From a virus, in the IMG/VR virus record IMGVR_UViG_3300027852_000007: a DNA stretch of 59,576 nt; one strand, given 5' to 3'. Under the pieces are notes generated by a model. It saw nothing but the letters and a program-made list of their open reading frames with translations. It did not search any database and was not told the DNA's origin. Below, in pieces: positions 8,765-59,576 of this stretch. The translations under genes were made by a program, and so were the position numbers. Each line of letters starts with the position of its first letter. Position 1 is the first letter of the stretch.

Positions 8765-8808
8765 AATACAAGTATTAGTCAATAGAAGTATTGACCTATA
8801 CAAGTATT
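8765..8808. promoter_or_regulatory. Cluster of three AATAC-WW-GTATT-type sites (one perfect, two 11/12)
   Basis: AATACAAGTATT at 8765-8776, AATAGAAGTATT at 8781-8792 and TATACAAGTATT at 8797-8808. The same 12-mer occurs at 37810, 40701 and 57181. Confidence 0.6.
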
Positions 8809-8824
8809 TATCAAGGAGAAAGTG

Positions 8825-33234: not shown

Positions 33235-33510
33235 GTAGATAAGGAGCGACTGCTCAACATGGAGCGTACCATTGGTCACGGCTGCACGCTGACTGTTTCA
33301 CCAGCGGAAATACCGGGGCTGAATTTGACGGTATTGGTCAAAGATGCTGACACTGGGGAGCGGCACCATTGGAGCCGCACAATCGACGCTACACTGTGGT
33401 TTGAGTATAGGGTACCTTCGGCTATTTTCGATCAATTTGTTGCAGAGGCAAAAGCCCGGTTTGATGCGGTTTTTGGACAGGCAAGGACGCCAAAGAGGAG
33501 GTTAGTGTGA
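33232..33510 (+). CDS. hypothetical protein
   Basis: 92 aa. Start is TTG 33232 or ATG 33259. The stop overlaps the next gene. Confidence 0.5.
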   Translation: MVDKERLLNMERTIGHGCTLTVSPAEIPGLNLTVLVKDADTGERHHWSRTIDATLWFEYRVPSAIFDQFVAEAKARFDAVFGQARTPKRRLV

Positions 33511-36500: not shown

Positions 36501-36704
36501 ATGGCGAAGGATGGTGCAGAGATAAAGACGATTGATAAGGCCATCATGCGTTATAACAAAGCCCACCCGCAGTATGCGATCACCCGCGCCACCTTGAAAC
36601 AATCCTTAAAGCGGCGCGCTAAGCTGGCGCAGGAGAGCCGGGGTGGGGTTAATCTGAACAAGCGGCTGGCTTACCTTTACGATGAGTTGCAGTTTTTGGA
36701 TTGA
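33507..36704 (+). CDS. very large virion-associated hypothetical protein (last gene of the + strand block)
   Basis: 1065 aa with a helical, charged N-terminal half and several hydrophobic segments in the C-terminal half (LGFFMYLGLTPAAAIVNMSQTAILGLPIMAA, GVLGMTGIFAGAAGMPLYSMISAMAGILLG). Function not recognised. Confidence 0.6.
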   Translation: MSTLATCIKRAGKALNPADAEEVRTLRANYIEDGMDGQAASQAAIDDVLSMLSDEREVLAKQVVKQGGRMPDQYRVYPALPTQGDKAKAEVSRLLFSKPTPEQDEVLKSMPLSGLAKAIRADDVVEEVRHKSKRMIHTVTTDAMYRKHFDKVAAMVPTRFLKDFARDEMVAPMDRLSNLFVEVDAMANSIRETFAERMEKVVAFVGKHDEARATQDLIHDSTLAGVDPSVGYKPVTFVGKTTKHVNVTVPISVARARKALKEAIAFNVRKQRRTGRQGGNVEAMAEGAELRDELAALEAKVKQEKARSEAKDELSQRWQSLSPEAQEIYTTVRDMYKDVRAIEDKAFEQRMDDLAAGKNPAEVKAIDSVRMAYRNQQLDEPYFRLYRTGDFWVAAYANEERKQVLGYWRFSSLADYDAKLDELEAAGVVTSSGKRQDDATPQVIDPTFAAEVVDKIRKMGGGAAKQLADQVWQQHLERLPDLSLRKTQMHRRKRAGFEQDITMGLAHTVYHGASQIAKLSFSGAMDRGLNELQVAAKEGSKTRKGAEVAPVLHEEMVKRVDMFRTHTTSTLANKATQLGFFMYLGLTPAAAIVNMSQTAILGLPIMAAKFGWAKSMRALLRASAQAFRPAGIKDQLTGDEKLAFEAFHARGLMEKTGAHSMAGVATEGAEYTGAQSRIMQVVSYPFHRAEVWNREATAMAAYRLARTKVDHDSAMKMASDLTWDAHFDYGTANRPRIMQRDFPKVVFLFKQYSLNMSYRLMRDANDAMRGLSQQDRKEARTRLAGVLGMTGIFAGAAGMPLYSMISAMAGILLGDEDEPFDMDTELRVALSRLLGATGSQVVMDGPTNVLTGLDVGSRVSLNNLWLRDPTYALEGKDLWHHYASEAMGPVFKLGDSTFEGLSRISQGTTERGVEMLMPKAGRDAMKALRFLNEGVLNLQGEDILPREDVSMWNALSQGIGFTPAKLALQYKQNTAIKGAEVQINQRRQLLLNRRALATMAKDGAEIKTIDKAIMRYNKAHPQYAITRATLKQSLKRRAKLAQESRGGVNLNKRLAYLYDELQFLD

Positions 36705-36736: not shown

Positions 36737-37414
36737 TCAGCCCTCAGCGAGCGGCAAAAGCTCCTGCTGCAAATGCGCATCACCGCTCCTTCTTTCGATT
36801 TCTACGTGCGACTCACGGGGAGCCTTTCTTTCATCCTCGCGCTCAATGACAGCCGAAAATGCAATACGATTGCCATTGTACATAACGTCCGGATTTATGT
36901 AGTACGCCCCTTTGCGTATGGTTTTCGCAATTATTTTTGCCTTTTCCAATTCTGACAAGCCTCGAAAAAATGTTGATATATGCATTACTGGCTGCGGATC
37001 TAAATGACCGTGACCTTCCAGAAAGTTTGACAGGGTGAAGCTGTCAAGAATAACAATGTCTTTAGCTTGAGCGTGTTCCTTTATTGCCCACATTACAACG
37101 CGCAACGCTTTGTTTCCGGCCTTTGTCAAATCAAAAGTGAACGCCATGTAGTCGGCAAATGTTTTGACAAACCTCTCCCTGTCAACCTTCTTGTAAGCGA
37201 CTACATGGGTTGATGTTATTTCCCCGGTTGTCTTGTTGATTAGTACGTTGTTCTCCTTGCCATATGTCGATATTTGTACTTGTTTTGACCCAACTGGGAT
37301 CACCATGTTTTGAATAAAAGGATTCTTGTCATATCGTATTATTTTAGTCACATTTATCCTTACACGTATTGTTATAAGATGGTGAATCTTAACGGTATGC
37401 ATTGCTAAATACAA
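36737..37414 (-). CDS. RepL-like winged-helix protein, copy A (replication initiator or regulator candidate)
   Basis: FVKTFADYMAFTFDLTKAGNKALRVVMWAIKEH...ISTFFRGLSELEKAKIIAKTIRKGAYYINPDVMYNGNRI fits the RepL pattern (wHTH followed by y.iNP...kG). AT-rich gene. True start uncertain (ATG 37402 or 37306). Confidence 0.5.
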   Translation of the reverse strand: MYLAMHTVKIHHLITIRVRINVTKIIRYDKNPFIQNMVIPVGSKQVQISTYGKENNVLINKTTGEITSTHVVAYKKVDRERFVKTFADYMAFTFDLTKAGNKALRVVMWAIKEHAQAKDIVILDSFTLSNFLEGHGHLDPQPVMHISTFFRGLSELEKAKIIAKTIRKGAYYINPDVMYNGNRIAFSAVIEREDERKAPRESHVEIERRSGDAHLQQELLPLAEG

Positions 37415-37513
37415 CTGCGTGAGGCGGCAACTCTCGGTAAAACAATAGGTGTAGATCGGTTTTTGTTATTTCTAATCTTATTCTATTGAGACCTAACATA
37501 TTATCAACATAAT

Positions 37514-37543
37514 ATTTGTAATGGCTGTGTAGCCATTACAAAT
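37514..37543. promoter_or_regulatory. Perfect palindrome upstream of RepL-like A (13-bp arms, 4-nt spacer) plus an adjacent third half-site
   Basis: atttgtaatggct-gtgt-agccattacaaat, followed by another aaatggct at 37540-37547. Confidence 0.7.
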
Positions 37544-37644
37544 GGCTAGATCGTGAAACAGAGGCTAGCATTTCCGGGGCCTGTAGAGGTTTCCCTTCTT
37601 ATATCTTGTAGTTTGCAGTTTCCATGCCAGAATTTGACCTCTTT

Positions 37645-37783
37645 TGCCCTCGACTACCGCCCTCCGCTTCGCTCGGTTGCTAGGCACTTGGAAAAAGTAA
37701 AATTGTGGACAGCGCTCCGCGTGGTCGCTGCGCTCCCGACTGACCACCGAATTTTCCTTTTCCCAAGCACCGATGCTCAAACA
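37645..37783 (-). ncRNA. Conserved 139-nt GC-rich element, copy A (candidate structured RNA or origin element; sense orientation matches RepL-like A)
   Basis: The reverse complement aligns without gaps to 58301-58439 (120/139 identical, with a 55-nt core carrying 1 mismatch). It is embedded in unrelated AT-rich sequence. Confidence 0.5.
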
Positions 37784-37809
37784 ATAGTTATTACATACTA
37801 ATATTGGCA

Positions 37810-37821
37810 AATACTTGTATT
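37810..37821. promoter_or_regulatory. AATACTTGTATT palindromic site, preceded by TTGGCA
   Basis: Perfect 12-mer of the AATAC-WW-GTATT family, 70 nt upstream of the AP2-like gene. Confidence 0.55.
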
Positions 37822-37891
37822 GGTTTAAACCAGTATTTGCTACATAAGCCGTGGGCATGTAGGCTATTCCCTTTTGGGGAGTTGACCGAAC

Positions 37892-38338
37892 TTGGCGACT
37901 GAAAATATTAGCAAGGGTATTACCAAATTTACCGATACCTGTTATCGCGCCGTTATATTTCTTCTCGGTAAGGAAGTGACGCGCTACTTCAAGACGCTGG
38001 AAGAGGCGAACGAGTGGTATGCCGAACATGCGCCGATTCGAGAAGATTTGCTCTCACCGGGTGGGAATGTCACGATGAAACAGACCCGCGCCAGAACTCA
38101 GGATTTACCTATCGGCACGTATGAGAGCTTTGAACAGTGTCGCCGCAAGTCCGTAGATTCCTACGTGGTGCCGATTATTCGCACGACGATATGCCTGAAA
38201 GACGGAGGGCTAAAGCATTTCCAACGCTCGTTTGACACGGGTGGGCCGAGGGATAGAACCCGTGAGGAAGCCGTTAAGCAGATAGCGGAAGCACGAGCAA
38301 AGTTTGTAGAAGAGAACCCGCACTTGGTGCGATACTAA
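37892..38338 (+). CDS. AP2-like DNA-binding protein (paralog of 50655-51092)
   Basis: CYRAVIFLLGKEVTRYFKTLEEANEWY is AP2-like (strand-strand-strand-helix). The C-terminal ...RTREEAVKQIAEARAKFVEENPHLV parallels ...RTLEEALAIVMEKRAAFVRANPDLF in the paralog. TTG start, uncertain. Confidence 0.5.
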   Translation: MATENISKGITKFTDTCYRAVIFLLGKEVTRYFKTLEEANEWYAEHAPIREDLLSPGGNVTMKQTRARTQDLPIGTYESFEQCRRKSVDSYVVPIIRTTICLKDGGLKHFQRSFDTGGPRDRTREEAVKQIAEARAKFVEENPHLVRY

Positions 38339-38357
38339 AAAAAAATAGGAAAAAACA

Positions 38358-38786
38358 ATGGCACGAGCACCAACAAAAGCACCAACAAAAGCACCAACAA
38401 AATCAGCCAAAGCAAAGGCGGAAGCGTTTGCGAAGAACTCGCCTGCAAAAAATCGCAGACCAACACCAGTCAAGGCCGCAACAAACAGGCGGTCTAATAT
38501 AGCGGTGCCGAGTAAAAATGGGTCGATACCACCTTTGAGCGTGTTGCTTGAGAAGGCGAACAACGAAGAAATGCTGCGCCGACCGTTGGCGCATTACAAG
38601 CCGGTGCTCAGGGTATTAATATCGAAAGGCATGATAGCACTTGAGATTATAGACTGGCTGGAGGCGCACAACGTTGGCACGTACCCGCGCACGACAATAG
38701 CCAAGATGGTCAAGACCATTAAGGATGAGAATAAGGCGAACGGTTGTGTGGGTTTGCCTGACCAGGAGGGCGACGGTCAGGGCTGA
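38358..38786 (+). CDS. Lys/Ala/Pro-rich (histone-H1-like tail) protein with C-terminal HTH-like domain
   Basis: N-terminus MARAPTKAPTKAPTKSAKAKAEAFAKNSPAKNRRPTPVKAA. C-terminus ...IIDWLEAHNVGTYPRTTIAKMVKTIKDEN. Confidence 0.55.
   Translation: MARAPTKAPTKAPTKSAKAKAEAFAKNSPAKNRRPTPVKAATNRRSNIAVPSKNGSIPPLSVLLEKANNEEMLRRPLAHYKPVLRVLISKGMIALEIIDWLEAHNVGTYPRTTIAKMVKTIKDENKANGCVGLPDQEGDGQG
38367..38402 (+). repeat. 12-bp x3 coding tandem repeat (gcaccaacaaaa = APTK)
   Basis: Three perfect units read directly. Confidence 0.9.
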
Positions 38787-40234
38787 GTAGTCTGCAAGCC
38801 TTCAATGTAGTCCACAAAAGCGGCCTTGATGGACAGTTGTGTTGCGTCCTTATCTTTGAGTGATGCCCACACCAGTTCGTCAACGGTGCGTCGGGCGATC
38901 AGCAGGTAGTTGCTGGTGATGTGTCGCTGACCCGTGCGGTTGAGGCGGCCATTAAGTTGTTCGAACAGTTCAAGGTCGGGTGTCAGGCTGAACCAGACGA
39001 TGCCGTGGGCGTGACCTTTTTGCAGGTTGAGACCGTGGCCACCGGACTGGGGCTGGACGCCCAGCAGGGGGATTTCATCATTGTTCCAACGCTCGATTAG
39101 TCTGTCACCACGTTTGGAGTCACCCAAAAACACCATCGAGGGGAAGCGCTCTTTGAGCCGGGCTTTGTCTGACCGATAGATGTAGGCGACGATCAGCGGG
39201 CGCTGGTCACATTCGTCAACAATCTGTGCCAGGGCGTCGAGCTTGGCGTTGTGAAAGCTGTTCCAGGTGCCTTTGTCATCGGTGTAGTAGGCACCGTTGG
39301 CGAGCTGTATAAGTTTACCGTAGAGTACCGCAGCGCTGACGGCGATCAGATCCTCACCAGCGATGGTGAGGATGCTCTCATGCTCCATGGTTTTGTACTG
39401 GTCAAAGGCCGCTGAGGGCAGGTCGCAGTAGACGGGGCGGGTCAGCACCTCGGGCAAGGACTGGTAATCTTCCGGTAGCAGGGTGGTGGCCAGTGACCCT
39501 ATGGCGTTGATGATAAGCCCCTGGGAACCCGGCCTTGGCATGTAGCCGAAGCCGCTGTACTGGCGCTCGAAGTAGCGGTTTCGGTAGGCGGTGATGTTAT
39601 GCCCCAGTCGTTTGCCACCATCCAGTAGATAGATTTGTGACCACAGGTTGATCAGCCCTTTCGGTGCTGGTGAGGCGGAGAGCTGTACCATGCGGTGAAT
39701 CCACGGGCGCATACGGCGCAGGGCTTTGAAGCGCTGTGAGGCGGGGTTACGAAACAGGCCGGACTCATCCATGATGACCATATCGAAGGGCCATGCGCAG
39801 TTCAGTACGCCGCTTTTAGGCGACTTTTTCACCGGGTATAAGCTGGTCAGCCATTTAACGTTTTCAACATTGATGGCGTGGTAGTGGTTGCCGTTGTTGA
39901 GTGCGCTGAGGCGCTGTTTAAGGCTGCCGCGGACTGGGGTGATGTTGATGTGCTCCAGGTGTGACCACTCGCAGGGTTCGTTGGGCCAGGTGTCTTCGAC
40001 GTTGCGCACGGTGGAGATGATGAGTACGCGGTTGATACTCAGGTCGTGGTAGAGCGCGTCGGCGATCATCAGGGCGATGAGGGTTTTGCCCGCACCAAGG
40101 AAGAGCCAGAAGGCGTGGAAGGGGTCGTCTATGCCGATGGCCACCATGCGTTGCTGGTAGTCGCGCACGTCGGCGAGACCTCTGGCTGCGGTGACGGTGG
40201 GCAGGTTTTCGGTTTGAGCGAGGGCTTGTTGCAT
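38777..40234 (-). CDS. SNF2/DEAD-like superfamily-2 helicase
   Basis: Motif I LFLGAGKT, motif II MVIMDESG, C-terminal helicase motifs GGHGLNLQ and QLNGRLNRTGQ. 485 aa. Confidence 0.85.
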   Translation of the reverse strand: MQQALAQTENLPTVTAARGLADVRDYQQRMVAIGIDDPFHAFWLFLGAGKTLIALMIADALYHDLSINRVLIISTVRNVEDTWPNEPCEWSHLEHINITPVRGSLKQRLSALNNGNHYHAINVENVKWLTSLYPVKKSPKSGVLNCAWPFDMVIMDESGLFRNPASQRFKALRRMRPWIHRMVQLSASPAPKGLINLWSQIYLLDGGKRLGHNITAYRNRYFERQYSGFGYMPRPGSQGLIINAIGSLATTLLPEDYQSLPEVLTRPVYCDLPSAAFDQYKTMEHESILTIAGEDLIAVSAAVLYGKLIQLANGAYYTDDKGTWNSFHNAKLDALAQIVDECDQRPLIVAYIYRSDKARLKERFPSMVFLGDSKRGDRLIERWNNDEIPLLGVQPQSGGHGLNLQKGHAHGIVWFSLTPDLELFEQLNGRLNRTGQRHITSNYLLIARRTVDELVWASLKDKDATQLSIKAAFVDYIEGLQTTQP

Positions 40235-40665: not shown

Positions 40666-40700
40666 AGTGCTTCTCCGTTGTTATATTACTTTTATTGATC

Positions 40701-40712
40701 AATACTTGTATT
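40701..40712. promoter_or_regulatory. AATACTTGTATT palindromic site, preceded by TTGATC, in the divergent region upstream of the parA-like gene
   Basis: Perfect 12-mer of the same family as 8765, 37810 and 57181. Confidence 0.55.
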
Positions 40713-41741: not shown

Positions 41742-42020
41742 ATGGCAAGATTTCGGGCACCACCGCGACAAAGCACTGATGGTATGTACGAGTGGGAGGA
41801 GAAAGAGGAAAGGGAGGAGAGGAAGGAGAGGAAGGAGAGGAAGGAGAGGAAGGAGAGGAAGGAGAGCATCGAAGAGCTGCTGGGCGAGCCGGAGGAAATG
41901 AAGCTGGTTCAGATCCGAATACCGGCGTCGGAGCGAGATCGTTTCAAGATGATTGCCGCCAGTGAGAACCTGACTATGGGTCGCTTGCTGTTGAGGATGA
42001 TTCAGGAGTACGAGGACTAA
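41742..42020 (+). CDS. ribbon-helix-helix protein (ParG-like centromere-binding candidate) with an ERK-repeat linker
   Basis: GAAGGAG lies upstream of ATG 41742. C-terminal KLVQIRIPASERDRFKMIAASENLTMGRLLLRMIQEY follows the RHH pattern. Sits downstream of the ParF-like ATPase. Confidence 0.55.
   Translation: MARFRAPPRQSTDGMYEWEEKEEREERKERKERKERKERKESIEELLGEPEEMKLVQIRIPASERDRFKMIAASENLTMGRLLLRMIQEYED
41814..41867 (+). repeat. 9-bp x6 coding tandem repeat (aaggagagg) within a roughly 75-nt all-purine tract
   Basis: Read directly. Encodes (ERK)n in the RHH protein. Confidence 0.9.
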
Positions 42021-47263: not shown

Positions 47264-47815
47264 TTAGATGTCGAGTTCTCGCGTCTTGTAGTTAATCCAT
47301 TCGATGATGGTGGGGTAGTCCCTTGCCTTCAGGTCTTCGGTGGTTTCAGCGCGGTACTCGGTGGTGATCAGGTTTTTCAGCTCCATGCGCATGTCGGGGT
47401 TATCGCGAACGAAGGTGCGCACGGCGTCTTTAAAGGTTTGTTTGCTGATACGCGGGGTGGCGGGCTTTGGCCCCTGTTTACCTTTGGCGGGAGGTCGGGT
47501 TTTGGGTCGTACTGGCTCTGGTTCAGGCTCTGGTTCAGGCTCTGGTTCAGGCTCTGGTTCAGGCTCTGGTTCAGGCTCAGGCTCAGGCTCAGGTTTTGGC
47601 TTGGGTTTTGGCTTGGGTTTTGGCTTGGGTTTTGGCTTGGGTTCTGGTGCCGGTACGATGTCTTCGGCAAGGGTTCTGACCTTTCTGAGTTCGATGTCCC
47701 ACCCCTTAGCAATCAGGCTAAGATCAAGAAAGGTGTCGTTGGGAATGTTGGCGGCGTTGAGTTCGTCGATAAAATTGAGGGCGAGCTGGTATATATCAGT
47801 CATTTTTTCATCCAT
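47264..47815 (-). CDS. hypothetical protein with a central (PK)n(PE)n low-complexity linker
   Basis: 183 aa containing [48 protein letters not shown]. The flanking parts look globular. Confidence 0.6.
47514..47645. repeat. Composite coding microsatellite: ggctctggttca x5, ggctca x3, ggttttggcttg x4
   Basis: Read directly. Open in several frames on both strands, which produces multiple shadow ORFs in the track. Confidence 0.9.
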
Positions 47816-48036
47816 GAATTAATGTTGTTTATTTTTTTACTTTTTATAGTGTTAGCAAACACTTACCGCCAATTCCTTTGACGGGCGGAAAATTATGCCT
47901 TGTGATCGGATCAACAACAAGTGCATTTCGAAAAAAATCCCCTTGTTGTACCAAAAAAAATAAAGCATGGTTTGCTTCCGCCTATGGATGGGCGGCTATT
48001 CTTTACCCTCTCAAGCCCGCAAAAGGATTTGCACCG

Positions 48037-50658
48037 ATGAGTAACCCTTCTACGCCCCCGTCTGCCCCACAAACACAGGATTTCCTTACCCGCGAGGGTG
48101 TCCAGATGCTTAGAGGGGGCTATGACATTGTGCCGATCCGCCCAGGACGGAAGCACCCAGGGATGGATGACTGGCCACAACTGGAGGCGACGGAAGAGGA
48201 TCTTAAACGGTGGAGCCGTAGCGGGTTTGTCGGCGGTGGGGTGGGTGTGAAGGGGGCGTGTTGCCCTGCTGTCGATGTGGATGTGACGGATAAGACGGTG
48301 GTACTGGAGGTGCTGACGCAGGTGGAGGCGACGGTGCTGGGTGACGATGATGCGCCGATGCTGACGCGGGTGGGGCAGGCTCCGAAGTGTCTGGTGCCGT
48401 TCCGCACGGATGCGTCGTTTACGAAGTGTAGTTCGAAGGCGTGGCAGGATATGGCCGGTGATACGCAGCGGCTGGAGATACTGGGCGATGGCCAGCAGTG
48501 GGTGGCGTTCGGTATCCACCCGGTGACACGTAAGCCTTACCGCTGGCGCGGTGGTGCGCGGTGCACGGTGGCGAGTGTGCCTTATGCTCAGTTGCCGGTG
48601 CTGACGGTGAACAAGGCCCAGGCGCTGGTGCGTTGGTTCGACAGGCAGGCGGAGGAGGTGTGGGGCTGGACGAAGCCGGCGGATTGTGAAACCCCCAACA
48701 CGCTACCTGGAGCGACAGGTGAAGGGGGCACACAAAACAGTAAAGCTGGTACGCCACCCGTGGAGTGGGAGGCGGTGTCAGATCTCGACATGGGTGTGAC
48801 GCTGAATCTGATAAAACCCAGTCTATCACACAGTGAGTGGTTAAAGGTAGGCATGGGCTGTTATGCGGCGTGTAAGGGCGACGAGTGGGGCTTTAAGCTG
48901 TGGAACGCATGGAGTGCGCGCTGCCCGGAGAAGTATAACAAGGGGGAGATGCGCAAGCGCTGGCGGTCGTTCGCATCGAACCGTGAGAACCCGGTGTCAT
49001 GGGGCACGGTGCTGCATGTCGCAGGGGTCAGTGCGACGGCGACGGTGAGTGCTGAGCCGGAGGCCGGGGATAACGTGCTGACGATCAGTGATGCGGATCG
49101 ACGCAGGAACCAGCAGAAGCTGAACGCGAGGGATATGGTGAGGCGTGTCGGTGAGTGCGGTGCGGTGGGTGAGCTGATCGACGCGGGGGGATTGTGTGAT
49201 GAGTTGGGTGCGCTGATCCGCGCCAAGGGGCTCAACGCGATGTCGGTACCTATCGTTAGCGATGCGATACGTGAGCAGTACCACAAGCTGTCGGGTTCTC
49301 GCTTGCCAGTGGCGGTGTTGCGCGATGCGATTACCCCTAAGCCAGGGCGGGGTGAGGATGAGCAGTATGAGGATGATGTTAAGCCGTGGCTGGATGCGCC
49401 TGACTGGTGCAAGCCGTGGATAATGTTGCACGACAGCATGGTGAATGTGAAGAGTCGGGAGCGTATGTCGCCAGGGGCGTTTAATGTCGCTCAGGGCTTC
49501 CGGGTGCCTGATCCGTCGGGTACGGGCAATAAGCAATCGGCGATGAAGTATGTTGCCAATGGGGGTTACATTCAGGTGGTGTCTGGTGAGGCGTATTTAC
49601 CCTGGTGTGAGGACAGGCTGACGGTACTCGATGGCATGTCTGTGCTGAACACGTACTGGCATGAGGGTGTGCCGGCGGCTAAACCGTGGGATGAGACGGA
49701 CACGGATGCGGCGGATGATATTGCGTTTGTGAAGCAACATTTCGTGCAGATGCTGGGCGAGGATGAAGCTAAGATTATGCTGTCGTGGATGGCGTGGCAG
49801 GTGCAGCGACCCGGTGAGCTGCTGAAGTGGGCACCGATCCTGTGCGGGGAGCAGGGCGTGGGTAAGTCGTATATCGAGGTGCTGATGACGGCGGTGATGG
49901 GCATCGGCAATGTGGGTGTGGTTACTTCCCGCGATGTGACGAGCACGTACACGGGGTGGTCAACCGGACGGGCCGTGAATGTAATACAGGAACTGCGAGT
50001 GTTGGGACATAACCGTTATGAGGCGATGGAGGCCTTGAAGTCGGTGATTACTGACCCGGCGGTGGTGGTGCGGCGGATGCGGGAGAATTCGTTTGTGACG
50101 CGCAATACCTGCAACTATATCGGCATGACTAACCACTTCGATACGCTGCCGATACCACGGGACGACCGGCGGTGGTGGGCGCTGCGGGCACAACGACCGT
50201 CGGCTGCGATGGGTGAGGCTGCCCCGGCGTATTATGATCGACTCTTTTCTATCATCGACAAGCGCACGGGTGAGCTGCGCCACTGGTTAGCTGAGCACGA
50301 TATACCAGCGGCGTTTGTGCAGCAGAAGACGGCGCCTTACTCTGAGCTGAAGGGGCAGATGATAGCGACGGAGGTGGCCAGCCATTACGGGATGGATGAG
50401 GCTATGGTGCTGCTGGCAGAGGGCGGCGAGGGTTACTGCACGGCGGCGTTCGATGCGCTGCGTTTGCGCATGGCTTTGAATGAAGCATTGGGTGAGGTTA
50501 ATGCGCTTACAGCCAGGGAGTGCACGACGCTGTTCAAGAAGCTGGGCTATATGCGTCATGCTAAGTCGGTGCGGGTGGACGGCATGGTGTGCAAGGTGTG
50601 GACGAAGGGTGTTATGTCGAACGCGGAGGTTAGGGCTTGTTTGCAGAGTGAGGATTAG
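48037..50658 (+). CDS. bifunctional primase-polymerase / PriCT-2 / SF3 (VirE/D5-type) helicase
   Basis: N-terminal prim-pol pattern GYDIVPIRPGRKHPGMDDWPQ...AVDVDV. PriCT-2-like SHSEWLKVGMGCYAACKGDEWGFKLWNAWSARCPEKYNKGEMRKRWRSF. Walker A CGEQGVGKS. I use ATG 48037 (AAAGGA upstream) rather than the track start at 47878. Confidence 0.85.
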   Translation: MSNPSTPPSAPQTQDFLTREGVQMLRGGYDIVPIRPGRKHPGMDDWPQLEATEEDLKRWSRSGFVGGGVGVKGACCPAVDVDVTDKTVVLEVLTQVEATVLGDDDAPMLTRVGQAPKCLVPFRTDASFTKCSSKAWQDMAGDTQRLEILGDGQQWVAFGIHPVTRKPYRWRGGARCTVASVPYAQLPVLTVNKAQALVRWFDRQAEEVWGWTKPADCETPNTLPGATGEGGTQNSKAGTPPVEWEAVSDLDMGVTLNLIKPSLSHSEWLKVGMGCYAACKGDEWGFKLWNAWSARCPEKYNKGEMRKRWRSFASNRENPVSWGTVLHVAGVSATATVSAEPEAGDNVLTISDADRRRNQQKLNARDMVRRVGECGAVGELIDAGGLCDELGALIRAKGLNAMSVPIVSDAIREQYHKLSGSRLPVAVLRDAITPKPGRGEDEQYEDDVKPWLDAPDWCKPWIMLHDSMVNVKSRERMSPGAFNVAQGFRVPDPSGTGNKQSAMKYVANGGYIQVVSGEAYLPWCEDRLTVLDGMSVLNTYWHEGVPAAKPWDETDTDAADDIAFVKQHFVQMLGEDEAKIMLSWMAWQVQRPGELLKWAPILCGEQGVGKSYIEVLMTAVMGIGNVGVVTSRDVTSTYTGWSTGRAVNVIQELRVLGHNRYEAMEALKSVITDPAVVVRRMRENSFVTRNTCNYIGMTNHFDTLPIPRDDRRWWALRAQRPSAAMGEAAPAYYDRLFSIIDKRTGELRHWLAEHDIPAAFVQQKTAPYSELKGQMIATEVASHYGMDEAMVLLAEGGEGYCTAAFDALRLRMALNEALGEVNALTARECTTLFKKLGYMRHAKSVRVDGMVCKVWTKGVMSNAEVRACLQSED

Positions 50659-51092
50659 GTGAACAGATCAGGGTTCGCACGCACGAAGGCGGCGCGTTTT
50701 TCCATGACGATTGCCAGGGCTTCTTCGAGTGTACGATTATCGCCATATTTGGCGTTGTGTGTTTTCCGCTTCCCGTTGTTGAGGTTGATGGTGCTACGCA
50801 CGAAGCGGTATGTGCGCGTGGTGCCGTCCTTGTTGGTGCGGGTATCGACACAGGGGCAGACGCCAACGGGAAAGCCCTGCACTGCATTTGCTGATTTTTG
50901 CAGCTTGTGTGCACCGGGTAGCAGGACGGCTTGACGCAGGCTTAGCATCGCATCGCGCCACGCTTGCGCAGCACTGAGCGTGTGGAAATATTGTTGTAGT
51001 TCTTCGCCTGTTTCTGGGTCGGCAACGGCAACGCGGAAATTGGTGTCGCTGTATTGACGAATGTTGTGTTCATTTTGTAAGCCGTTTAACAT
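50655..51092 (-). CDS. AP2-like DNA-binding protein (paralog of 37892-38338)
   Basis: NFRVAVADPETGEELQQYFHTLSAAQAWRDAM follows the AP2 pattern. A second half has a conserved C-terminal helix shared with the paralog. Confidence 0.5.
   Translation of the reverse strand: MLNGLQNEHNIRQYSDTNFRVAVADPETGEELQQYFHTLSAAQAWRDAMLSLRQAVLLPGAHKLQKSANAVQGFPVGVCPCVDTRTNKDGTTRTYRFVRSTINLNNGKRKTHNAKYGDNRTLEEALAIVMEKRAAFVRANPDLFT
51033..51074. repeat. 42-bp direct repeat, copy A (inside the 5' end of the AP2-like gene)
   Basis: gcggaaattggtgtcgctgtattgacgaatgttgtgttcatt matches 51556-51597 at 40/42 positions. Confidence 0.9.
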
Positions 51093-51549: not shown

Positions 51550-51554
51550 GTCAA
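51526..51554 (-). promoter_or_regulatory. Near-consensus sigma70-type promoter with a palindromic operator in the spacer
   Basis: The minus strand reads TTGACT-tgttacgcgtaacgcgt-TATAAT (17-nt spacer). The spacer contains the perfect palindrome GTTACGCGTAAC (51536-51547). Confidence 0.6.
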
Positions 51555-51555
51555 G

Positions 51556-51597
51556 GCGGAAATTGGTGTCGCTGTATCGGCGAATGTTGTGTTCATT
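51556..51597. repeat. 42-bp direct repeat, copy B (orphan fragment of the AP2-like 5' coding region)
   Basis: On the minus strand it encodes NEHNIRRYSDTNFR, which corresponds to codons 7-20 of the AP2-like gene, but has no start codon. Confidence 0.9.
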
Positions 51598-51790
51598 GTT
51601 CTGCCATCGACGCGAGAAGCATCATCATTTGCCCTTCGTCAGCAATGACCATTTCATCTTCACCATTGGGTGACTCATCGATTTTCTTTTGTATGAAGGC
51701 TTCGGCCTTATCGCCAAACACTGCGCTCAGTTTTTTGTAGGTGCCAAGCGTGGACGGATCGCCAGTTGATAGTAGTTTCAAGGGTGTCAT
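51593..51790 (-). CDS. hypothetical early protein
   Basis: 65 aa with ATGA overlap to the upstream gene. Confidence 0.5.
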   Translation of the reverse strand: MTPLKLLSTGDPSTLGTYKKLSAVFGDKAEAFIQKKIDESPNGEDEMVIADEGQMMMLLASMAEQ

Positions 51791-52233
51791 CCTTTTTTTG
51801 TGAAGTTCACGGGTTCGGTGAGGGTGCGACTGGCTGTCCAGCCCTTTTGATAATAGCGGGTGCGGATGACAGTTTCAGCAATGCCTGATTTTTCTGCCCA
51901 CTGCTTACAGGTCAGGGTTTCACCCTTGAACCGAATCGTTTTTAGCGGCGGTGATGCAACGTACGGTGTTTCGAGAGCACGCTTAACTGGCCAATTCTTT
52001 TCCAGGCGCGACAAAATGACTTTGTAAGGAATGCCGGTAATCTCTACCCACTCTGTCACGGTTTTTTTCTTGCGCTGGTAGGTGAGCTTTTTCATGCCGC
52101 CGCGCTCACGCATTGCGGTTTCAAGAATCTTGACTAACTCCAGGGCGCTGTCGCTGCAATCCGCGACCTTGCGCCATTGCCTGATCAACTTGAGTTCGTG
52201 CTTGAAGAGCTGCTTTTCTTTTGTTGCAGGCAT
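51787..52233 (-). CDS. DNA-binding protein with two tandem HTH-like repeats
   Basis: TVTEWVEITGIPYKVILSRLEKNWPVKRAL and LTCKQWAEKSGIAETVIRTRYYQKGWTASRTL are two copies of one HTH-like unit. Confidence 0.55.
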   Translation of the reverse strand: MPATKEKQLFKHELKLIRQWRKVADCSDSALELVKILETAMRERGGMKKLTYQRKKKTVTEWVEITGIPYKVILSRLEKNWPVKRALETPYVASPPLKTIRFKGETLTCKQWAEKSGIAETVIRTRYYQKGWTASRTLTEPVNFTKKG

Positions 52234-55340: not shown

Positions 55341-55383
55341 TATTTTTAATAAATCGGGCACCAGGCCGGCCCTTTTCGACAGT

Positions 55384-55855
55384 TTGTAACTGAAAATGGC
55401 AATTTGTAACTAAACTCCACCAAGTTCAGTTACACTTAAGTTGTTGATTTATAAGGATAAAATAAATTATGTAACTGTTGTAACTGTCTTGTAACTGACT
55501 TTGGTTACACGCCAAGTCATTGATTTATAAGGATAAATTTGTAAATTTGGTTAGGTTTTTTACTGTAACTGACTTTATTCCACGGTGTACAGATTTATAT
55601 AATATATATAATAAGCACGTAATATATTATGTGTATAGCTGGCTGGTGGAAGAAAGTCAGTTACAACAGTTACAGCGCTATTTTTTGCTGATTTTCTTAA
55701 TAAAATCAATGACTTACGGTGTAACTAAACTTGGTTACACGTCAGTTACAACAGTTACAAAAAATAAAATATGTATATAAATCAGAGGGTTAAGTGTAAC
55801 TGAACTCAGTTACACTCAGTTACACTCAGTTACACTCAGTTACACTCAGTTACAC
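55384..55855. other. Iteron-dense, AT-rich origin-of-replication-like region
   Basis: About 20 copies of a GTTAC(A)/(T)GTAAC core in both orientations, including tcagttacac x5 in tandem (55806-55855), cagttacaacagttaca x2 and tgtaactg x3. There is also a roughly 50-bp AT-only stretch (55591-55640) and an 18-bp direct repeat ttgatttataaggataaa (55444-55461 and 55520-55537). Confidence 0.6.
55806..55855. repeat. 10-bp x5 perfect tandem iterons (tcagttacac)
   Basis: Read directly. Confidence 0.95.
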
Positions 55856-55924
55856 TCGAGGGAGAAAGGCGTGGGGACTGTGGGAGGTGGCCAGCCCTTG
55901 GAGAGCTGACCAGGCCAGGTGGTG

Positions 55925-56750: not shown

Positions 56751-56858
56751 CAAGAGCAAGAGCATTTAATGCCTGACGGCTTGCGCCGTCTCTGTTCATA
56801 CAAGCAAGAGCAAGAGCATTTAATGCCTGACGGCTTGCGCCGTCTCTGTTCATACAAG
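56751..56858. repeat. 54-bp x2 perfect tandem repeat, each unit with a gacggc-ttgc-gccgtc hairpin and a gcatt-t-aatgc inverted repeat
   Basis: caagagcaagagcatttaatgcctgacggcttgcgccgtctctgttcatacaag occurs at 56751-56804 and 56805-56858. Confidence 0.9.
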
Positions 56859-56973: not shown

Positions 56974-56993
56974 GGGTCTCTATATATACACCA

Positions 56994-57134
56994 CTTAATC
57001 GGTCACACTCCTTTGAACTGAGAAGTTATCCCCTTCAATACTTAATCAGTCACACTCCTTTGAACTGAGAAGTTATCCCCTTCAACACTTAATCAGTCAC
57101 GCTCCTTTGAACTGAGAAGTTATTCCCTTTCTGC
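56994..57134. repeat. 47-bp x3 tandem direct repeats about 140 nt upstream of the TerS-like gene
   Basis: cttaatc(g/a)gtcac(a/g)ctcctttgaactgagaagttat(c/t)ccc... starts at 56994, 57041 and 57088. Each unit has TCAGT-N13-ACTGA. Confidence 0.9.
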
Positions 57135-57180
57135 GCCATAACCATCAGTTATACCAAGAAACCGTATAGCGGTATTGATA

Positions 57181-57192
57181 AATACAAGTATT
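57181..57192. promoter_or_regulatory. AATACAAGTATT palindromic site, preceded by TTGATA, upstream of the TerS-like gene
   Basis: Perfect 12-mer. TTGATA, an 18-nt spacer and TACGAT would place the site inside a promoter spacer. Confidence 0.55.
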
Positions 57193-57274
57193 GACCAATA
57201 CGATGATTGGTGGCAGCCTTCGACGTAATCTGAAAAAAATTTGAAAAAAATTTCTGTCTGAGGAAACCCCTTCT

Positions 57275-58300: not shown

Positions 58301-58439
58301 TGTTTGAGTAATGGTGCTCGGCAAAATACAAATTCGGTGGTCAGTCGGGAGCGCAGCGACCACGCGAAGCGCTGTCCACAATTTGTCTTTTGTCGAGTGC
58401 CTGACAACCGAGCGTAGCGGAGGGCGTCAGTCGAGGGCA
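58301..58439 (+). ncRNA. Conserved 139-nt GC-rich element, copy B (candidate structured RNA or origin element; sense orientation matches RepL-like B)
   Basis: Aligns without gaps to the reverse complement of 37645-37783 (120/139). A 10-bp stem, ggtgctcggc (58313-58322) with gtcgagtgcc (58392-58401), is kept in copy A through compensatory changes. Confidence 0.5.
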
Positions 58440-58541
58440 CTAGCCCCTGGAAAACACACAAAAAAGTAACACAAATAGAATCATAGAATAGGAACTTCAT
58501 AAAATCGCCGGTAGGTGTTTGATTCCTATTACTTTGTATGT

Positions 58542-58603
58542 TTTTTGTACATGCCATAGCTGGTGACACTATGGCATGACACCAGCTATGGCATGTACAA
58601 AAA
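58542..58603. promoter_or_regulatory. Perfect 24-bp-arm palindrome (14-nt spacer) upstream of RepL-like B, with extra CTATGGCAT-type sites nearby
   Basis: tttttgtacatgccatagctggtg-acactatggcatga-caccagctatggcatgtacaaaaa. Further atggcatag and gtgccat sites lie at 58651-58680. Confidence 0.75.
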
Positions 58604-58739
58604 GTAACCAGTTGTGAAATTTCAGTAAAATTTGCAACAGCATAATCCTCATGGCATAGTTCGTGCCATCCTGCTATGGTCATTCATCGCAATGTCGAGC
58701 AAAACGTTGTTAATTTGGGGTAAAATAGGGTTTTAGCGA

Positions 58740-59351
58740 ATGGAAAATAAAAATAAAAATAAAACGCATGAACTTGAACAGCAGGTCAATCATCTTAGGG
58801 AATTGCTGAATGATGAGAGAGAACAAAACAGAGCAACCAAAAACAAAGTAAACGGCGGATATTACATGACCAGTCGAAAGGCGGAAAAAAGCTTGAGGAT
58901 CTTACAGCAGGAAAGCCCTGTTGGAAGTCTTGTTTTCAGTGTGCTTCGAGAACATATGAAGATCGGTACCAACGCGGTGACAATATCAAGTCCTACACTG
59001 GCAAAAATATTGAACAAATCACTACGCACCATTGCTCGGGCCATCAAACACTTGCTCGACAATTGTTATGTTCAAATCATCAAAACCGGCAACACAAACA
59101 CTTACGTGATCAACGAACAAATTTCTTTTGCGGGTACAGCAGGACAGAGGAAGGCAGTTTTTTCTGCAACCATTGTTGCCCATGAAGATGAGCAGGAGGA
59201 GGGGTGGGAAAAGGTAAAAACACTAAAGACCACAACTTCACCGATTGACCGCAGAGCATCAGATAATCGTGCACAAGCGAGGAACATGAATCGAAAGCAC
59301 TCTGCTGATGACACAAAGCATGACACCCTGTGGCACGCTACCACGCCATGA
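58740..59351 (+). CDS. RepL-like winged-helix protein, copy B (replication initiator or regulator candidate)
   Basis: ...VGSLVFSVLREHMKIGTNAVTISSPTLAKILNKSLRTIARAIKHLLDNCYVQIIKTGNTNTYVINEQISFAG fits the RepL pattern. AT-rich gene. Confidence 0.5.
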   Translation: MENKNKNKTHELEQQVNHLRELLNDEREQNRATKNKVNGGYYMTSRKAEKSLRILQQESPVGSLVFSVLREHMKIGTNAVTISSPTLAKILNKSLRTIARAIKHLLDNCYVQIIKTGNTNTYVINEQISFAGTAGQRKAVFSATIVAHEDEQEEGWEKVKTLKTTTSPIDRRASDNRAQARNMNRKHSADDTKHDTLWHATTP

Positions 59352-59391: not shown

Positions 59392-59576
59392 ATGACCATC
59401 ACCTTTGACGAGCAGGGAACCCCTGTTGTCGTCACTGAGCGGGGCGTTGACAGGCCTTACGACTTCAGTTTCAAAACCATTAACGCTTTCGTCAACAGGC
59501 CTGGGGTACAGTTCGAGGAGCTGGAGGCCTTGTGTCTGGCCATGGCGGATTCGATGGAAAAGTTGGGCAGAAACGA
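59392..59576 (+). CDS. 5' part of the junction-spanning hypothetical ORF (continues at 128-191 after circular closure)
   Basis: ATG 59392, MTITFDEQGTPVVVTERGVDRPYDFSFKTINAFVNRPGVQFEELEALCLAMADSMEKLGRN... The frame is open to the window end and continuous with 3-191. Confidence 0.45.
   Translation, partial: MTITFDEQGTPVVVTERGVDRPYDFSFKTINAFVNRPGVQFEELEALCLAMADSMEKLGRN
59450..59576. repeat. Terminal direct repeat, copy 2 (identical to 1-127)
   Basis: Same 127-nt string as the window start. Unique genome length is therefore 59,449 bp. Confidence 0.95.

What the first reader, a model, noticed from the sequence alone, without database searches (positions are those of the whole stretch)
58542..58680. 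Each RepL-like gene has its own large perfect palindrome or iteron set at the same relative position
Upstream of RepL-like B lies a perfect inverted repeat with 24-bp arms (58542-58565 and 58580-58603, 14-nt spacer). It is built around ATGCCATAG/CTATGGCAT, and more copies of that motif lie at 58569, 58651 and 58672. At the equivalent position upstream of RepL-like A there is a perfect 13-bp-arm palindrome (37514-37526 and 37531-37543) built around a different motif, TTGTAATGGCT/AGCCATTACAA, plus a third half-site. The two modules therefore share one architecture: conserved element, roughly 100-nt spacer, palindrome, 115-170 nt, then the gene. The palindrome sequences differ, as expected for two initiator or repressor proteins with different DNA specificities. 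Two such modules in one 59-kb phage genome is unusual.
Basis: seen in the sequence. Interest (0 to 1): 0.65.

Follow-up and report, generated by a model that had tools for sequence, protein, structure and literature searches.

The report
Swappable plasmid replicon cassettes in phage
A marine phage carries two small plasmid-type replication units, each a RepL-like gene preceded by its own DNA repeats and by a shared 139-base folded element, and closely related phages swap these units like cassettes.

Summary
The 24-bp-arm palindrome (58542-58603) and the 13-bp-arm palindrome (37514-37543) are the two longest perfect inverted repeats in this circular ~59.4-kb genome. None of 40 random genomes reached 13-bp arms.

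Each palindrome lies upstream of a RepL-like winged-helix gene. A is on the minus strand and passes the Pfam RepL cut-off. B falls just below it. Both proteins are 55-70% identical to the Rep proteins of 1.2-6-kb cryptic plasmids of Gammaproteobacteria. Those plasmids carry their own repeats at the same positions, so the palindromes are the ordinary origin/operator repeats of two plasmid replicon families.

It is 139 nt, strand-specific and folds into a long hairpin with compensatory changes. It matches no Rfam family. It is the constant 5' part of about 1-kb [element + repeats + RepL] cassettes.

Near-identical phages hold different RepL types in the same slots. One relative has a whole cassette inserted at a third site. 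The 3' edge of the element is a recurrent junction.

No binding, replication or RNA evidence is available. Two divergent repL genes in one phage has a published precedent in crAssphage. I rate this a new variant of a known kind, of moderate interest.

The parts
58301..58439 (+). Shared 139-nt structured element, copy B. It forms a long hairpin with a small 3' hairpin, three GCG-N-AGCG motifs and an invariant CTGTCCACA in the stem.
   Evidence: Alignments. Consensus fold and covariation. Covariance model scores 161 bits on this strand and 21 bits on the other.
58440..58541 (+). A/T-rich spacer (65% A+T against 46% for the genome) with an AATAGAATCATAGAA...GGAAC block and a T-run. It is homologous to the stretch before the repeats in B-type plasmids and is a candidate unwinding region.
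   Evidence: Composition. Comparison with L006, L007, L019, L021 and pHW104.
58542..58603 (.). Palindrome B: 24-bp perfect arms plus a third motif copy in the spacer. That gives three copies of ATGCCATAG/CTATGGCAT around the family-wide linker CATAGCTGGTGA. Inferred RepL-B binding repeats (origin/operator).
   Evidence: About 30 of 32 nt are shared with the pHW104 repeat region (counted by eye).
58651..58680 (.). Degenerate motif copies forming a small inverted repeat (ATGGCAtagttcgTGCCAT, 58652-58670) plus CTATGG. Inferred second operator near the rep promoter, like the inverted repeat just before rep in plasmid L021.
58740..59351 (+). RepL-like B, 203 aa: an N-terminal long helix, a winged-helix core at residues 46-124 and a disordered tail. 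It belongs to the pHW104/pVCG1.2 Rep family. Backbone homology, and so the cassette's 3' boundary, resumes at 59393.
   Evidence: Boundary.
37645..37783 (-). Shared 139-nt structured element, copy A.
   Evidence: 160.5 bits on the minus strand, 20 bits on the plus strand.
37781..37810 (-). Promoter-like site (TTGCCA-18-TATTGT) whose predicted start falls at the 5' end of element copy A. It overlaps the recurring AATACAAGTATTG motif pair.
   Evidence: This is a consensus match only.
37514..37543 (.). Palindrome A: 13-bp perfect arms (ATTTGTAATGGCT/AGCCATTACAAAT) and an adjacent partial third half-site at 37541-37547. Inferred RepL-A operator/origin repeat.
   Evidence: A-type plasmids have palindromes at -135 to -98.
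37480..37507 (-). Promoter-like site (TTGATA-16-TAGAAT, 10 of 12) immediately downstream of palindrome A. Probable repL-A promoter.
36737..37414 (-). RepL-like A, a Pfam RepL protein. The likely start is the ATG at 37402 (221 aa, as in database cluster P0121). The longest ORF starts at the TTG at 37414 (225 aa). Its stop lies 32 nt from the stop of the convergent 1065-aa gene.
42016..42019 (.). Empty site in the window. In relative L009, a complete [element + 3 x 22-bp iterons + third-type RepL] cassette is inserted here, antisense to the flanking genes.

Best explanation
Each module is a complete plasmid-type mini-replicon of about 1.1 kb embedded in the phage genome. The palindrome and its extra motif copies are the binding repeats of the adjacent RepL-family winged-helix protein. 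By analogy with plasmid Rep proteins, the protein would bind them as a dimer or oligomer for two purposes: to open the neighbouring A/T-rich stretch and start replication, and to repress its own promoter, which abuts or overlaps the repeats. The two proteins are only about 22% identical and read different motifs, so the two replicons should not cross-react. The shared 139-nt element is the constant 5' part of such cassettes in this phage lineage. It most likely acts as a single strand, on the gene-sense strand. It could be a folded ssDNA signal for priming or lagging-strand synthesis on the displaced strand, or a structured RNA. Because it is the only sequence that unrelated cassettes share, it also serves as the crossover point where cassettes are exchanged. 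What is shown here: the repeats, the homology to plasmid replicons, the conserved layout, the strand-specific conserved hairpin, and cassette replacement and insertion among near-identical phages. What is inferred: binding, initiation, autoregulation, the role of the element, and the benefit to the phage (perhaps plasmid-like carriage, as proposed for P1 and crAssphage).
For: The repeats are far beyond chance. A is Pfam RepL. B has a confident winged-helix core and matches only winged-helix DNA binders, and 19 of 25 B relatives hit RepL. Hundreds of 55-70% identical relatives sit on 1-9-kb contigs and on named small plasmids. B-type plasmids share the T-run, the linker CATAGCTGGTGA, three motif copies at about -190 to -100 and extra copies next to the start codon, with plasmid-specific motifs. 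The only two replicons with the same motif (pVCG1.2 and L021) also share the same HTH sequence. A-type plasmids have palindromes at -135 to -98, and module A has its own at -129 to -100. A promoter-like site abuts palindrome A. For the element: seven copies on six distinct sequences, always 5' of and co-oriented with a RepL cassette. Its 48-pair consensus fold is 96.5% paired, against 40-49% when the partners are slid. Six pairs keep pairing through changes on both sides, and 0 of 500 shuffles reach the covariation score. By my count from the pair table, about 15% of cells are G.U pairs, which would be A.C mismatches on the other strand. The model scores 137-161 bits on the sense strand and 17-29 bits on the antisense strand. 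A plasmid analogue exists at the same relative position and strand in Aeromonas. The GCG-N-AGCG motifs are shared with a Halomonas plasmid. Cassette exchange: L006 carries a B-type gene in slot A while its flanking 1065-aa protein is 99% identical; L011 carries a third-type RepL in slot B; L009 has a whole cassette at a new site; L010 has tandem cassettes. Run X1 has a minor variant (24x against about 660x) with the A body replaced. Run X2 lacks the B body and shows at least three contexts diverging at 37641-37645.
Against: No binding, replication or transcript data exist, and no RNA run holds this sequence. RepL-B scores below the Pfam RepL cut-off (18.7 against 20.3), and the A-versus-B profile comparison is weak (probability 7%). 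The phage has its own full replisome: Prim-Pol/D5-type helicase, PolA, SSB, exonuclease and an SF2 helicase. It also has a separate iteron-like field at 55380-55860, so it may not need the RepL units for replication. In P1, the RepL origin lies inside repL, not upstream (PMC9948254). One A-type cassette (in L010) and all plasmids in PLSDB lack the 139-nt element, so the element is not essential for the replicon. The covariation rests on only six related sequences, and the tested structure was derived from them. With DNA energy parameters the hairpin forms on both strands with only a small sense-strand advantage.
Confidence: 0.7

Rival explanations
1. The RepL-like proteins have been domesticated as transcription regulators. 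The palindromes would then be plain operators that control phage or cassette genes, and no replication starts there.
For: The fold matches are all to winged-helix repressors of the ArsR, MarR and TubR types. Perfect palindromes are typical operators. A promoter-like site abuts palindrome A. The phage has its own replisome and another origin-like repeat field.
Against: The whole upstream region, not just the gene, is homologous to the basic replicons of plasmids as small as 1.2-2.4 kb, which carry little besides rep. Rapid replacement by other Rep types, each with its own iterons, fits replicon specificity better than regulation of fixed phage genes.
Confidence: 0.12
2. The 139-nt element is the attachment site of a site-specific recombination system, integron-like or Xer/IMEX-like, that captures and releases RepL cassettes as folded single strands. 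The palindromes would be incidental to that mobility.
For: There is a recurrent junction within about 10 nt of the element's 3' edge. A whole cassette starts exactly at the element's 5' end in L009. The hairpin is conserved and strand-specific.
Against: No integrase or recombinase was found among the ORFs tested, though not all ORFs were scanned. The 3' ends of the cassettes vary: one lies inside the RepL-A C-terminus, and L006 has a truncated relic gene. There are no terminal repeats or target duplication. One cassette moved without the element (L010). Ordinary homologous recombination in the shared 139 nt plus the backbone explains most replacements.
Confidence: 0.12
3. The palindromes are RNA hairpins, either transcription terminators or processing sites that insulate the cassettes, and not protein-binding sites.
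For: The simple scan lists palindrome A as terminator-like on the minus strand. The Rfam hits on palindrome B are all to generic hairpin precursors.
Against: Palindrome B has its T-run before the stem and its A-run after it on both strands, the reverse of a terminator. The same motif recurs outside the hairpin. In plasmid relatives the repeats are direct or mixed and could not form the same hairpin. The Rfam hits are far below their gathering scores.
Confidence: 0.04
4. Assembly artefact: reads from small plasmids were wrongly joined into the phage contig.
For: The sequence is a metagenome assembly. The cassettes resemble plasmids, and a repeated element could mislead an assembler.
Against: Depth is even across backbone and cassettes in run X1 (about 600-750x). 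The same junctions appear in independent contigs from other samples (L011, L013, L016, L017). Relatives show alternative cassettes at the same junctions.
Confidence: 0.02

Closest known systems
Basic replicons of small cryptic plasmids of the pHW104 / pVCG1.2 / pAM10.6 group (B-type) and of RepL plasmids such as pPS1M3, pBGR1 and 2-4-kb E. coli plasmids (A-type)
   Same: The Rep proteins are 47-66% identical. The upstream layout is the same: a T-run, motif copies around CATAGCTGGTGA at -190 to -100, and extra copies next to the start codon. About 30 of 32 nt are shared with pHW104 at the repeats.
   Different: Here the replicon sits inside a 59-kb phage genome and not on a free plasmid. The repeats have been reshaped into a perfect 24-bp-arm palindrome. 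The GC-rich region upstream is replaced by a specific 139-nt hairpin element that PLSDB lacks. The replication mode of these plasmids is itself unsettled: rolling-circle is suspected in PMC2831885 and theta in PMC3399079.
Phage P1 lytic replicon (repL / oriL)
   Same: A phage-borne RepL-family initiator that drives replication in addition to another replicon. An A/T-rich stretch is essential (PMC9948254).
   Different: The P1 origin lies inside repL and no upstream palindrome is described. The window's proteins have no detectable tblastn match in 50,697 phage records.
Prototypic crAssphage with two repL genes (PMC10983915)
   Same: Two genes annotated repL, only 24.6% identical to each other, lie at the two ends of a gene block, with a predicted origin directly upstream of one. 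The copy number differs among near-identical genomes. The authors read this as a phage-plasmid lifestyle. The window also has a ParA-like gene and no integrase among the ORFs tested.
   Different: That study searched with profile PF01719, not PF05732, so family equivalence is unverified. No shared structured element or cassette junctions are described there. The host and phage groups differ: gut Bacteroides crAss-like there, a marine relative of 9NA/Sasha-like siphoviruses here.
Single-strand origins (sso) of rolling-circle plasmids, and A-site/ABC-primosome type single-strand initiation signals
   Same: A non-coding, strongly folded, orientation-specific element of about 140 nt lies upstream of the Rep-specific origin and is shared between replicons with unrelated Rep proteins. 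The A-site is an ssDNA hairpin with a DnaA box in its stem (PMC6127211). The element's stem holds an invariant CTGTCCACA, a 7/9 match to TTATCCACA.
   Different: No ssDNA intermediate or priming is shown. A 7/9 match is at chance level. RepL has no nuclease domain. With DNA parameters the strand preference is small. The comparison with sso modules rests partly on my own recollection of the rolling-circle plasmid literature.

Membership tests
Pfam RepL (PF05732) | Score at or above the curated gathering cut-off (20.3 bits) | tested here: met
   RepL-like A scores 37.3 bits, E = 2.4e-9. All listed A-type relatives but one (P0240) carry PF05732. The third-type RepL of L011 scores 23.9 bits.
Pfam RepL (PF05732) | The same cut-off, applied to RepL-like B | tested here: not met
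   B scores 18.7 bits against 20.3, and HTH_36 scores 22 against 25. 19 of 25 close relatives hit RepL at E < 0.01, best 2.6e-6. The A-versus-B profile comparison gives probability 7% and E = 0.005. B is best called a divergent RepL-like winged-helix Rep.
Winged-helix DNA-binding proteins | Helix-turn-helix followed by a beta-hairpin wing | tested here: met
   The AlphaFold model of B has pLDDT 85-93 over residues 46-124, with H-H-E-H-H-E-E topology. Foldseek hits are ArsR, MarR, TubR and RbkR at probability 1.0. A was not modelled.
pHW104/pVCG1.2-type small-plasmid replicon (B-type) | A homologous Rep plus the conserved upstream repeat layout | tested here: met
   56-66% identity to the plasmid Rep proteins. 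Shared T-run, CATAGCTGGTGA linker, three motif copies and promoter-proximal copies.
pHW104/pVCG1.2-type small-plasmid replicon (B-type) | Autonomous replication that depends on Rep and the repeats | not testable with these tools
   It needs cloning in an origin-less vector. In the literature only the pAM10.6 Rep is shown to be required (cited in PMC2831885).
Classical iteron-type theta replicon | Three or more direct repeats of about 17-22 bp next to an A/T-rich region, plus DnaA boxes | tested here: inconclusive
   B has three exact and two degenerate copies in mixed orientation and a 65% A+T spacer. A has a palindrome plus a partial third site. True direct iterons (21-22 bp, three to five copies) occur only in the third-type cassettes of L011 and L009. 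B has no DnaA box within one mismatch, and A has one at chance level.
Rolling-circle replicon (pSN2 superfamily, as proposed for pHW104) | A Rep protein with a nicking (HUH-type) nuclease domain | tested here: not met
   Only winged-helix or HTH families are found by Pfam, and the model shows a coiled helix, a winged-helix core and a disordered tail.
Rolling-circle replicon (pSN2 superfamily, as proposed for pHW104) | A strand-specific, folded single-strand origin upstream of rep | tested here: inconclusive
   The 139-nt element has the right position, orientation and fold. No ssDNA intermediate or priming can be tested here.
Integron-type gene cassettes | An adjacent integrase and a recombination site at the end of each cassette | tested here: not met
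   No recombinase was found among the ORFs scanned, and the scan was not exhaustive. The element lies at the 5' end. One cassette lacks it, and the 3' ends vary.
Phage-plasmids (P1-like, crAss-like) | Phage structural genes together with plasmid replication and partition genes, and episomal carriage | tested here: inconclusive
   Structural genes and two plasmid-type rep genes are present. The ParA-like protein scores 88 bits against a cut-off of 180 and matches a PHROG ParA-like family. No ParB, repressor or integrase was identified. Episomal state is not testable here.
Any Rfam RNA family | A match at the gathering score | tested here: not met
   No matches in the whole window. There are only sub-threshold miRNA-type hits on palindrome B and nothing on the element.

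The most novel reading that the evidence does not exclude
The 139-nt hairpin element marks a previously undescribed class of mobile mini-replicon cassettes. These would be integrated RepL plasmids of about 1 kb that move between phage genomes, and perhaps excise as tiny plasmids. The element would work as a folded single strand, both as the cassette's priming or lagging-strand origin and as its recombination site. The phages would then be vehicles for, and hosts of, a pool of competing plasmid replicons.
Probability: 0.2. Interest if true: 0.8.

Novelty: new variant of a known kind. Interest (0 to 1): 0.55.

Why it matters
A Rep gene preceded by its own binding repeats is textbook plasmid biology, so the palindromes themselves are ordinary.

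What is less expected is where they occur. The phage has a full replisome of its own, yet it carries two unrelated plasmid mini-replicons. Genomes that are otherwise 97-99% identical hold different replicon types in the same slots.

This suggests a rapid traffic of replication modules between small plasmids and phages in the sea. It may relate to plasmid-like carriage of phages, to incompatibility between co-infecting relatives, or to plasmids hitchhiking in capsids.

The shared 139-nt element is a compact, conserved, strand-specific structure with no Rfam family. It offers a direct experimental handle on how RepL replicons work, which is still unclear even for phage P1. It could also serve as a marker for finding such cassettes in metagenomes.

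Tried and rejected
- **Rfam:** nothing at gathering thresholds in the whole window. At permissive thresholds there were only spurious miRNA and snoRNA hits on palindrome B.
- **Coding potential of the element:** the differences between the two copies show no three-base periodicity, and the possible ORF in copy B has no start and an early stop in copy A. This is my own reading of the alignment.
- **Terminator reading of the palindromes:** rejected for B because the T-run and A-run are in the wrong order.
- **DnaA boxes:** no enrichment, and the 7/9 match in the stem is at chance level.
- **More copies of the element:** none from two exact-pattern scans each of IMG/VR and GTDB genomes, plus one exact 25-mer scan of IMG/VR. 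None in PLSDB by blastn. The single metagenome scan gave three contigs.
- **Close relatives in phage collections:** none in INPHARED or IMG/VR for either RepL protein. No megablast hit for the region in phages or plasmids.
- **terS as an anchor for more slot-B variants:** only one relative cluster.
- **PDB by sequence:** nothing meaningful.
- **NCBIfam:** no model hits A, B or the third type.
- **A versus B profile comparison:** weak.
- **Covariance model on Halomonas and Vreelandella plasmids:** no hit, although short motifs are shared.
- **First literature search:** useless, because "RepL" also matched "replication".
- **Assembly artefact:** rejected on depth and on independent contigs.

Full report
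**Observation.** The window is a circular assembly of about 59,449 bp, because bases 1-127 repeat at 59450-59576. The inverted repeat at 58542-58565 / 58580-58603 is perfect over 24 bp, or 27 bp at 96%. A third copy of the core motif, CTATGGCATG, sits in its 14-nt spacer. ATGCCATAG or its complement occurs only at 58551, 58569 and 58586 in the whole genome. The copies reported at 58651 and 58672 are degenerate and together form a second small inverted repeat, ATGGCAtagttcgTGCCAT. The 13-bp-arm palindrome at 37514-37543 is also perfect. These are the two longest perfect inverted repeats in the genome. None of 40 composition-matched random genomes reached 13-bp arms. RepL-like A lies on the minus strand, so the two modules are inverted relative to each other. 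With that correction the shared order holds: element, about 100 nt, palindrome, 100-136 nt, gene.

**The proteins.** A (36737-37402/37414, minus strand) is a Pfam RepL protein, with 37.3 bits against a cut-off of 20.3. B (58740-59351) falls just short, with RepL at 18.7 bits and HTH_36 at 22. An AlphaFold model of B has a confident winged-helix core, a long N-terminal helix and a disordered tail. It matches only winged-helix DNA binders in the PDB. 19 of 25 close relatives of B hit RepL on their own. A and B are about 22% identical, and their family profiles align only over the recognition helix and wing. Neither has a relative in 50,697 phage records. The window contains no other RepL-like ORF.

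**Plasmid origin of the modules.** Both proteins have hundreds of relatives at 55-70% identity, nearly all on contigs of 1-9 kb. In PLSDB these are the Rep genes of small cryptic plasmids. The B-type group includes pVCG1.2 (Vibrio, 2.4 kb), pHW104 (Rahnella, 5.1 kb) and Aeromonas 3.7-kb plasmids. The A-type group includes E. coli 2-4-kb plasmids, pPS1M3 and Bartonella pBGR1/2. I also retrieved Halomonas and Vreelandella B-type plasmids.

The non-coding DNA upstream is homologous too. B-type plasmids have a T-run, then copies of a plasmid-specific motif joined by the linker CATAGCTGGTGA at about -190 to -100, and further copies next to the start codon. The phage and pHW104 share about 30 of 32 nt here. 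The only two replicons with the same motif, pVCG1.2 and L021, are also the only two with the same helix-turn-helix sequence. They are close relatives overall, so this is weak support. A-type plasmids have palindromes at -135 to -98, against -129 to -100 in the phage. The palindromes are therefore the ordinary Rep-binding repeats of two plasmid replicon families. The literature calls the B family "poorly studied", with rolling-circle replication suspected in one paper and theta replication in another (PMC2831885, PMC3399079).

**The shared element.** I found further copies on five more contigs, which add four distinct sequences. Every copy lies 5' of a RepL cassette and points the same way. The consensus fold is a long hairpin plus a small 3' hairpin:
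- 48 pairs are 96.5% paired, against 40-49% when the partners are slid.
- Six pairs keep pairing through changes on both sides.
- No shuffle out of 500 reaches the covariation score.
- By my count from the pair table, about 15% of cells are G.U pairs, which would be mismatches on the other strand.
- A covariance model scores 137-161 bits on the sense strand and 17-29 bits on the antisense strand.

The element has no Rfam family and shows no sign of coding. It is absent from PLSDB, IMG/VR and GTDB genomes at the sensitivity used. It may still be a diverged form of a normal plasmid part. An Aeromonas B-type plasmid has a very stable hairpin on the same strand at the same distance from rep, sharing the GTGGTCAG and GTCCAC arm motifs. 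A Halomonas plasmid shares the GCG-N-AGCG motifs. With DNA energy parameters the hairpin forms on both strands with a small sense-strand advantage, so RNA and ssDNA both remain possible. No RNA run holds this sequence.

**Cassette behaviour.**
- L006 is the same phage: its 1065-aa protein is 99% identical. In slot A it holds a B-type RepL with its own palindrome and a truncated relic of another winged-helix gene.
- L011 shares the slot-B backbone but holds a third RepL type with four or five 21-bp direct iterons.
- L009 has a complete unit, made of the element, three 22-bp iterons and a third-type RepL. It is inserted between window positions 42016 and 42019, starts exactly at the element's 5' end, and its stop codon overlaps that of the neighbouring gene.
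- L010/L007, a mosaic relative, has a B-type cassette followed by an A-type cassette 96% identical to the window's. That A-type cassette lacks the element, and its homology begins within a few bases of the element's 3' edge.
- In the source run, a 24x variant (against about 660x) replaces the A body between 36704 and 37645.
- In a second marine run, the B body is missing while the backbone is present, and at least three contexts diverge at 37641-37645.
- The 3' ends of the cassettes are not fixed.

**Mechanism.** I think each unit is a plasmid-type mini-replicon. RepL would bind its repeats to open the adjacent A/T-rich stretch (65% A+T in B) and to repress its own promoter. A good promoter-like site abuts palindrome A. 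The element is most likely a single-stranded accessory signal, either for priming or lagging-strand synthesis, or a structured RNA. As the only homology between unrelated cassettes, it is also the place where they recombine. The A-site hairpin of the ABC primosome is a functional precedent (PMC6127211), but the DnaA-box match here is at chance level.

The benefit to the phage is unknown. It has its own replisome and another origin-like repeat field. It also has a ParA-like gene, and no integrase among the ORFs I tested. That leaves plasmid-like carriage, as proposed for P1 and crAssphage (PMC9948254, PMC10983915), as a reasonable guess.

**Novelty and limits.** Rep genes with upstream repeats, RepL in phages, and two divergent repL genes in one phage are all known. 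What I did not find described is the 139-nt element and the cassette-like exchange at fixed slots in near-identical genomes of a phage distantly related to the 9NA/Sasha group (46% polymerase identity). Everything functional here is inferred. The covariation rests on six related sequences, and the lineage is rare in public data.

Noticed in passing
window 55380-55860: A dense field of 16 GTAACTG/CAGTTAC copies in both orientations, ending in a run of 10-bp ACTCAGTTAC tandem repeats at 55804-55857, around a very A/T-rich core at about 55580-55640. It looks like the phage's own origin or a partition site for the ParA-like protein.
   Followed up: partly
window 8765-8810, 37794-37838, 40687-40712, 57165-57209: A recurring AATACAAGTATTGAC-like motif, in pairs 16 nt apart, at four intergenic boundaries. 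One pair lies right next to element copy A. These are probably operators or promoters of a phage regulator.
   Followed up: no
window 47878-50658 (+): A 926-aa primase-polymerase fused to a PriCT-2 domain and a D5/VapE-type helicase. It is on the plus strand within a block of mostly minus-strand replication genes, and many spurious minus-strand ORFs overlap it.
   Followed up: partly
window 56751-56858 and 56993-57133: Two tandem repeat arrays, 54 nt x 2 (identical) and 47 nt x 3 (85-96%), lie just upstream of the small terminase gene. They could be a packaging or regulatory region. Run X2 skips 102 nt here.
   Followed up: no
window 37843-38800: About 1 kb holding two ORFs of unknown function (37892-38338 and 38358-38786, no family hits) is absent from the near-identical phage L006. 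This is a further indel polymorphism right beside slot A.
   Followed up: partly
L006 1273-1515: A truncated winged-helix (HTH_36, 30 bits) gene relic lies between the B-type RepL and the 1065-aa gene. It suggests earlier cassettes were overwritten at this slot.
   Followed up: partly
window 47497-47664 and 41790-41870: 12-nt and 9-nt in-frame tandem repeats inside ORFs, which would encode low-complexity, acidic repeat proteins.
   Followed up: no
window 51029-51074 and 51552-51597; 51787-52233: A 46-nt direct repeat (93%) spaced 523 nt apart, with an HNH endonuclease gene nearby (PHROG hit, E = 5.5e-16).
   Followed up: no
window 33507-36704: A 1065-aa protein at the end of the structural block. 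Its 99%-identical copy in L006 carries a precomputed Pfam LPD39 (large polyvalent protein) hit. It is convergent with RepL-A and forms the fixed 3' border of slot A.
   Followed up: partly
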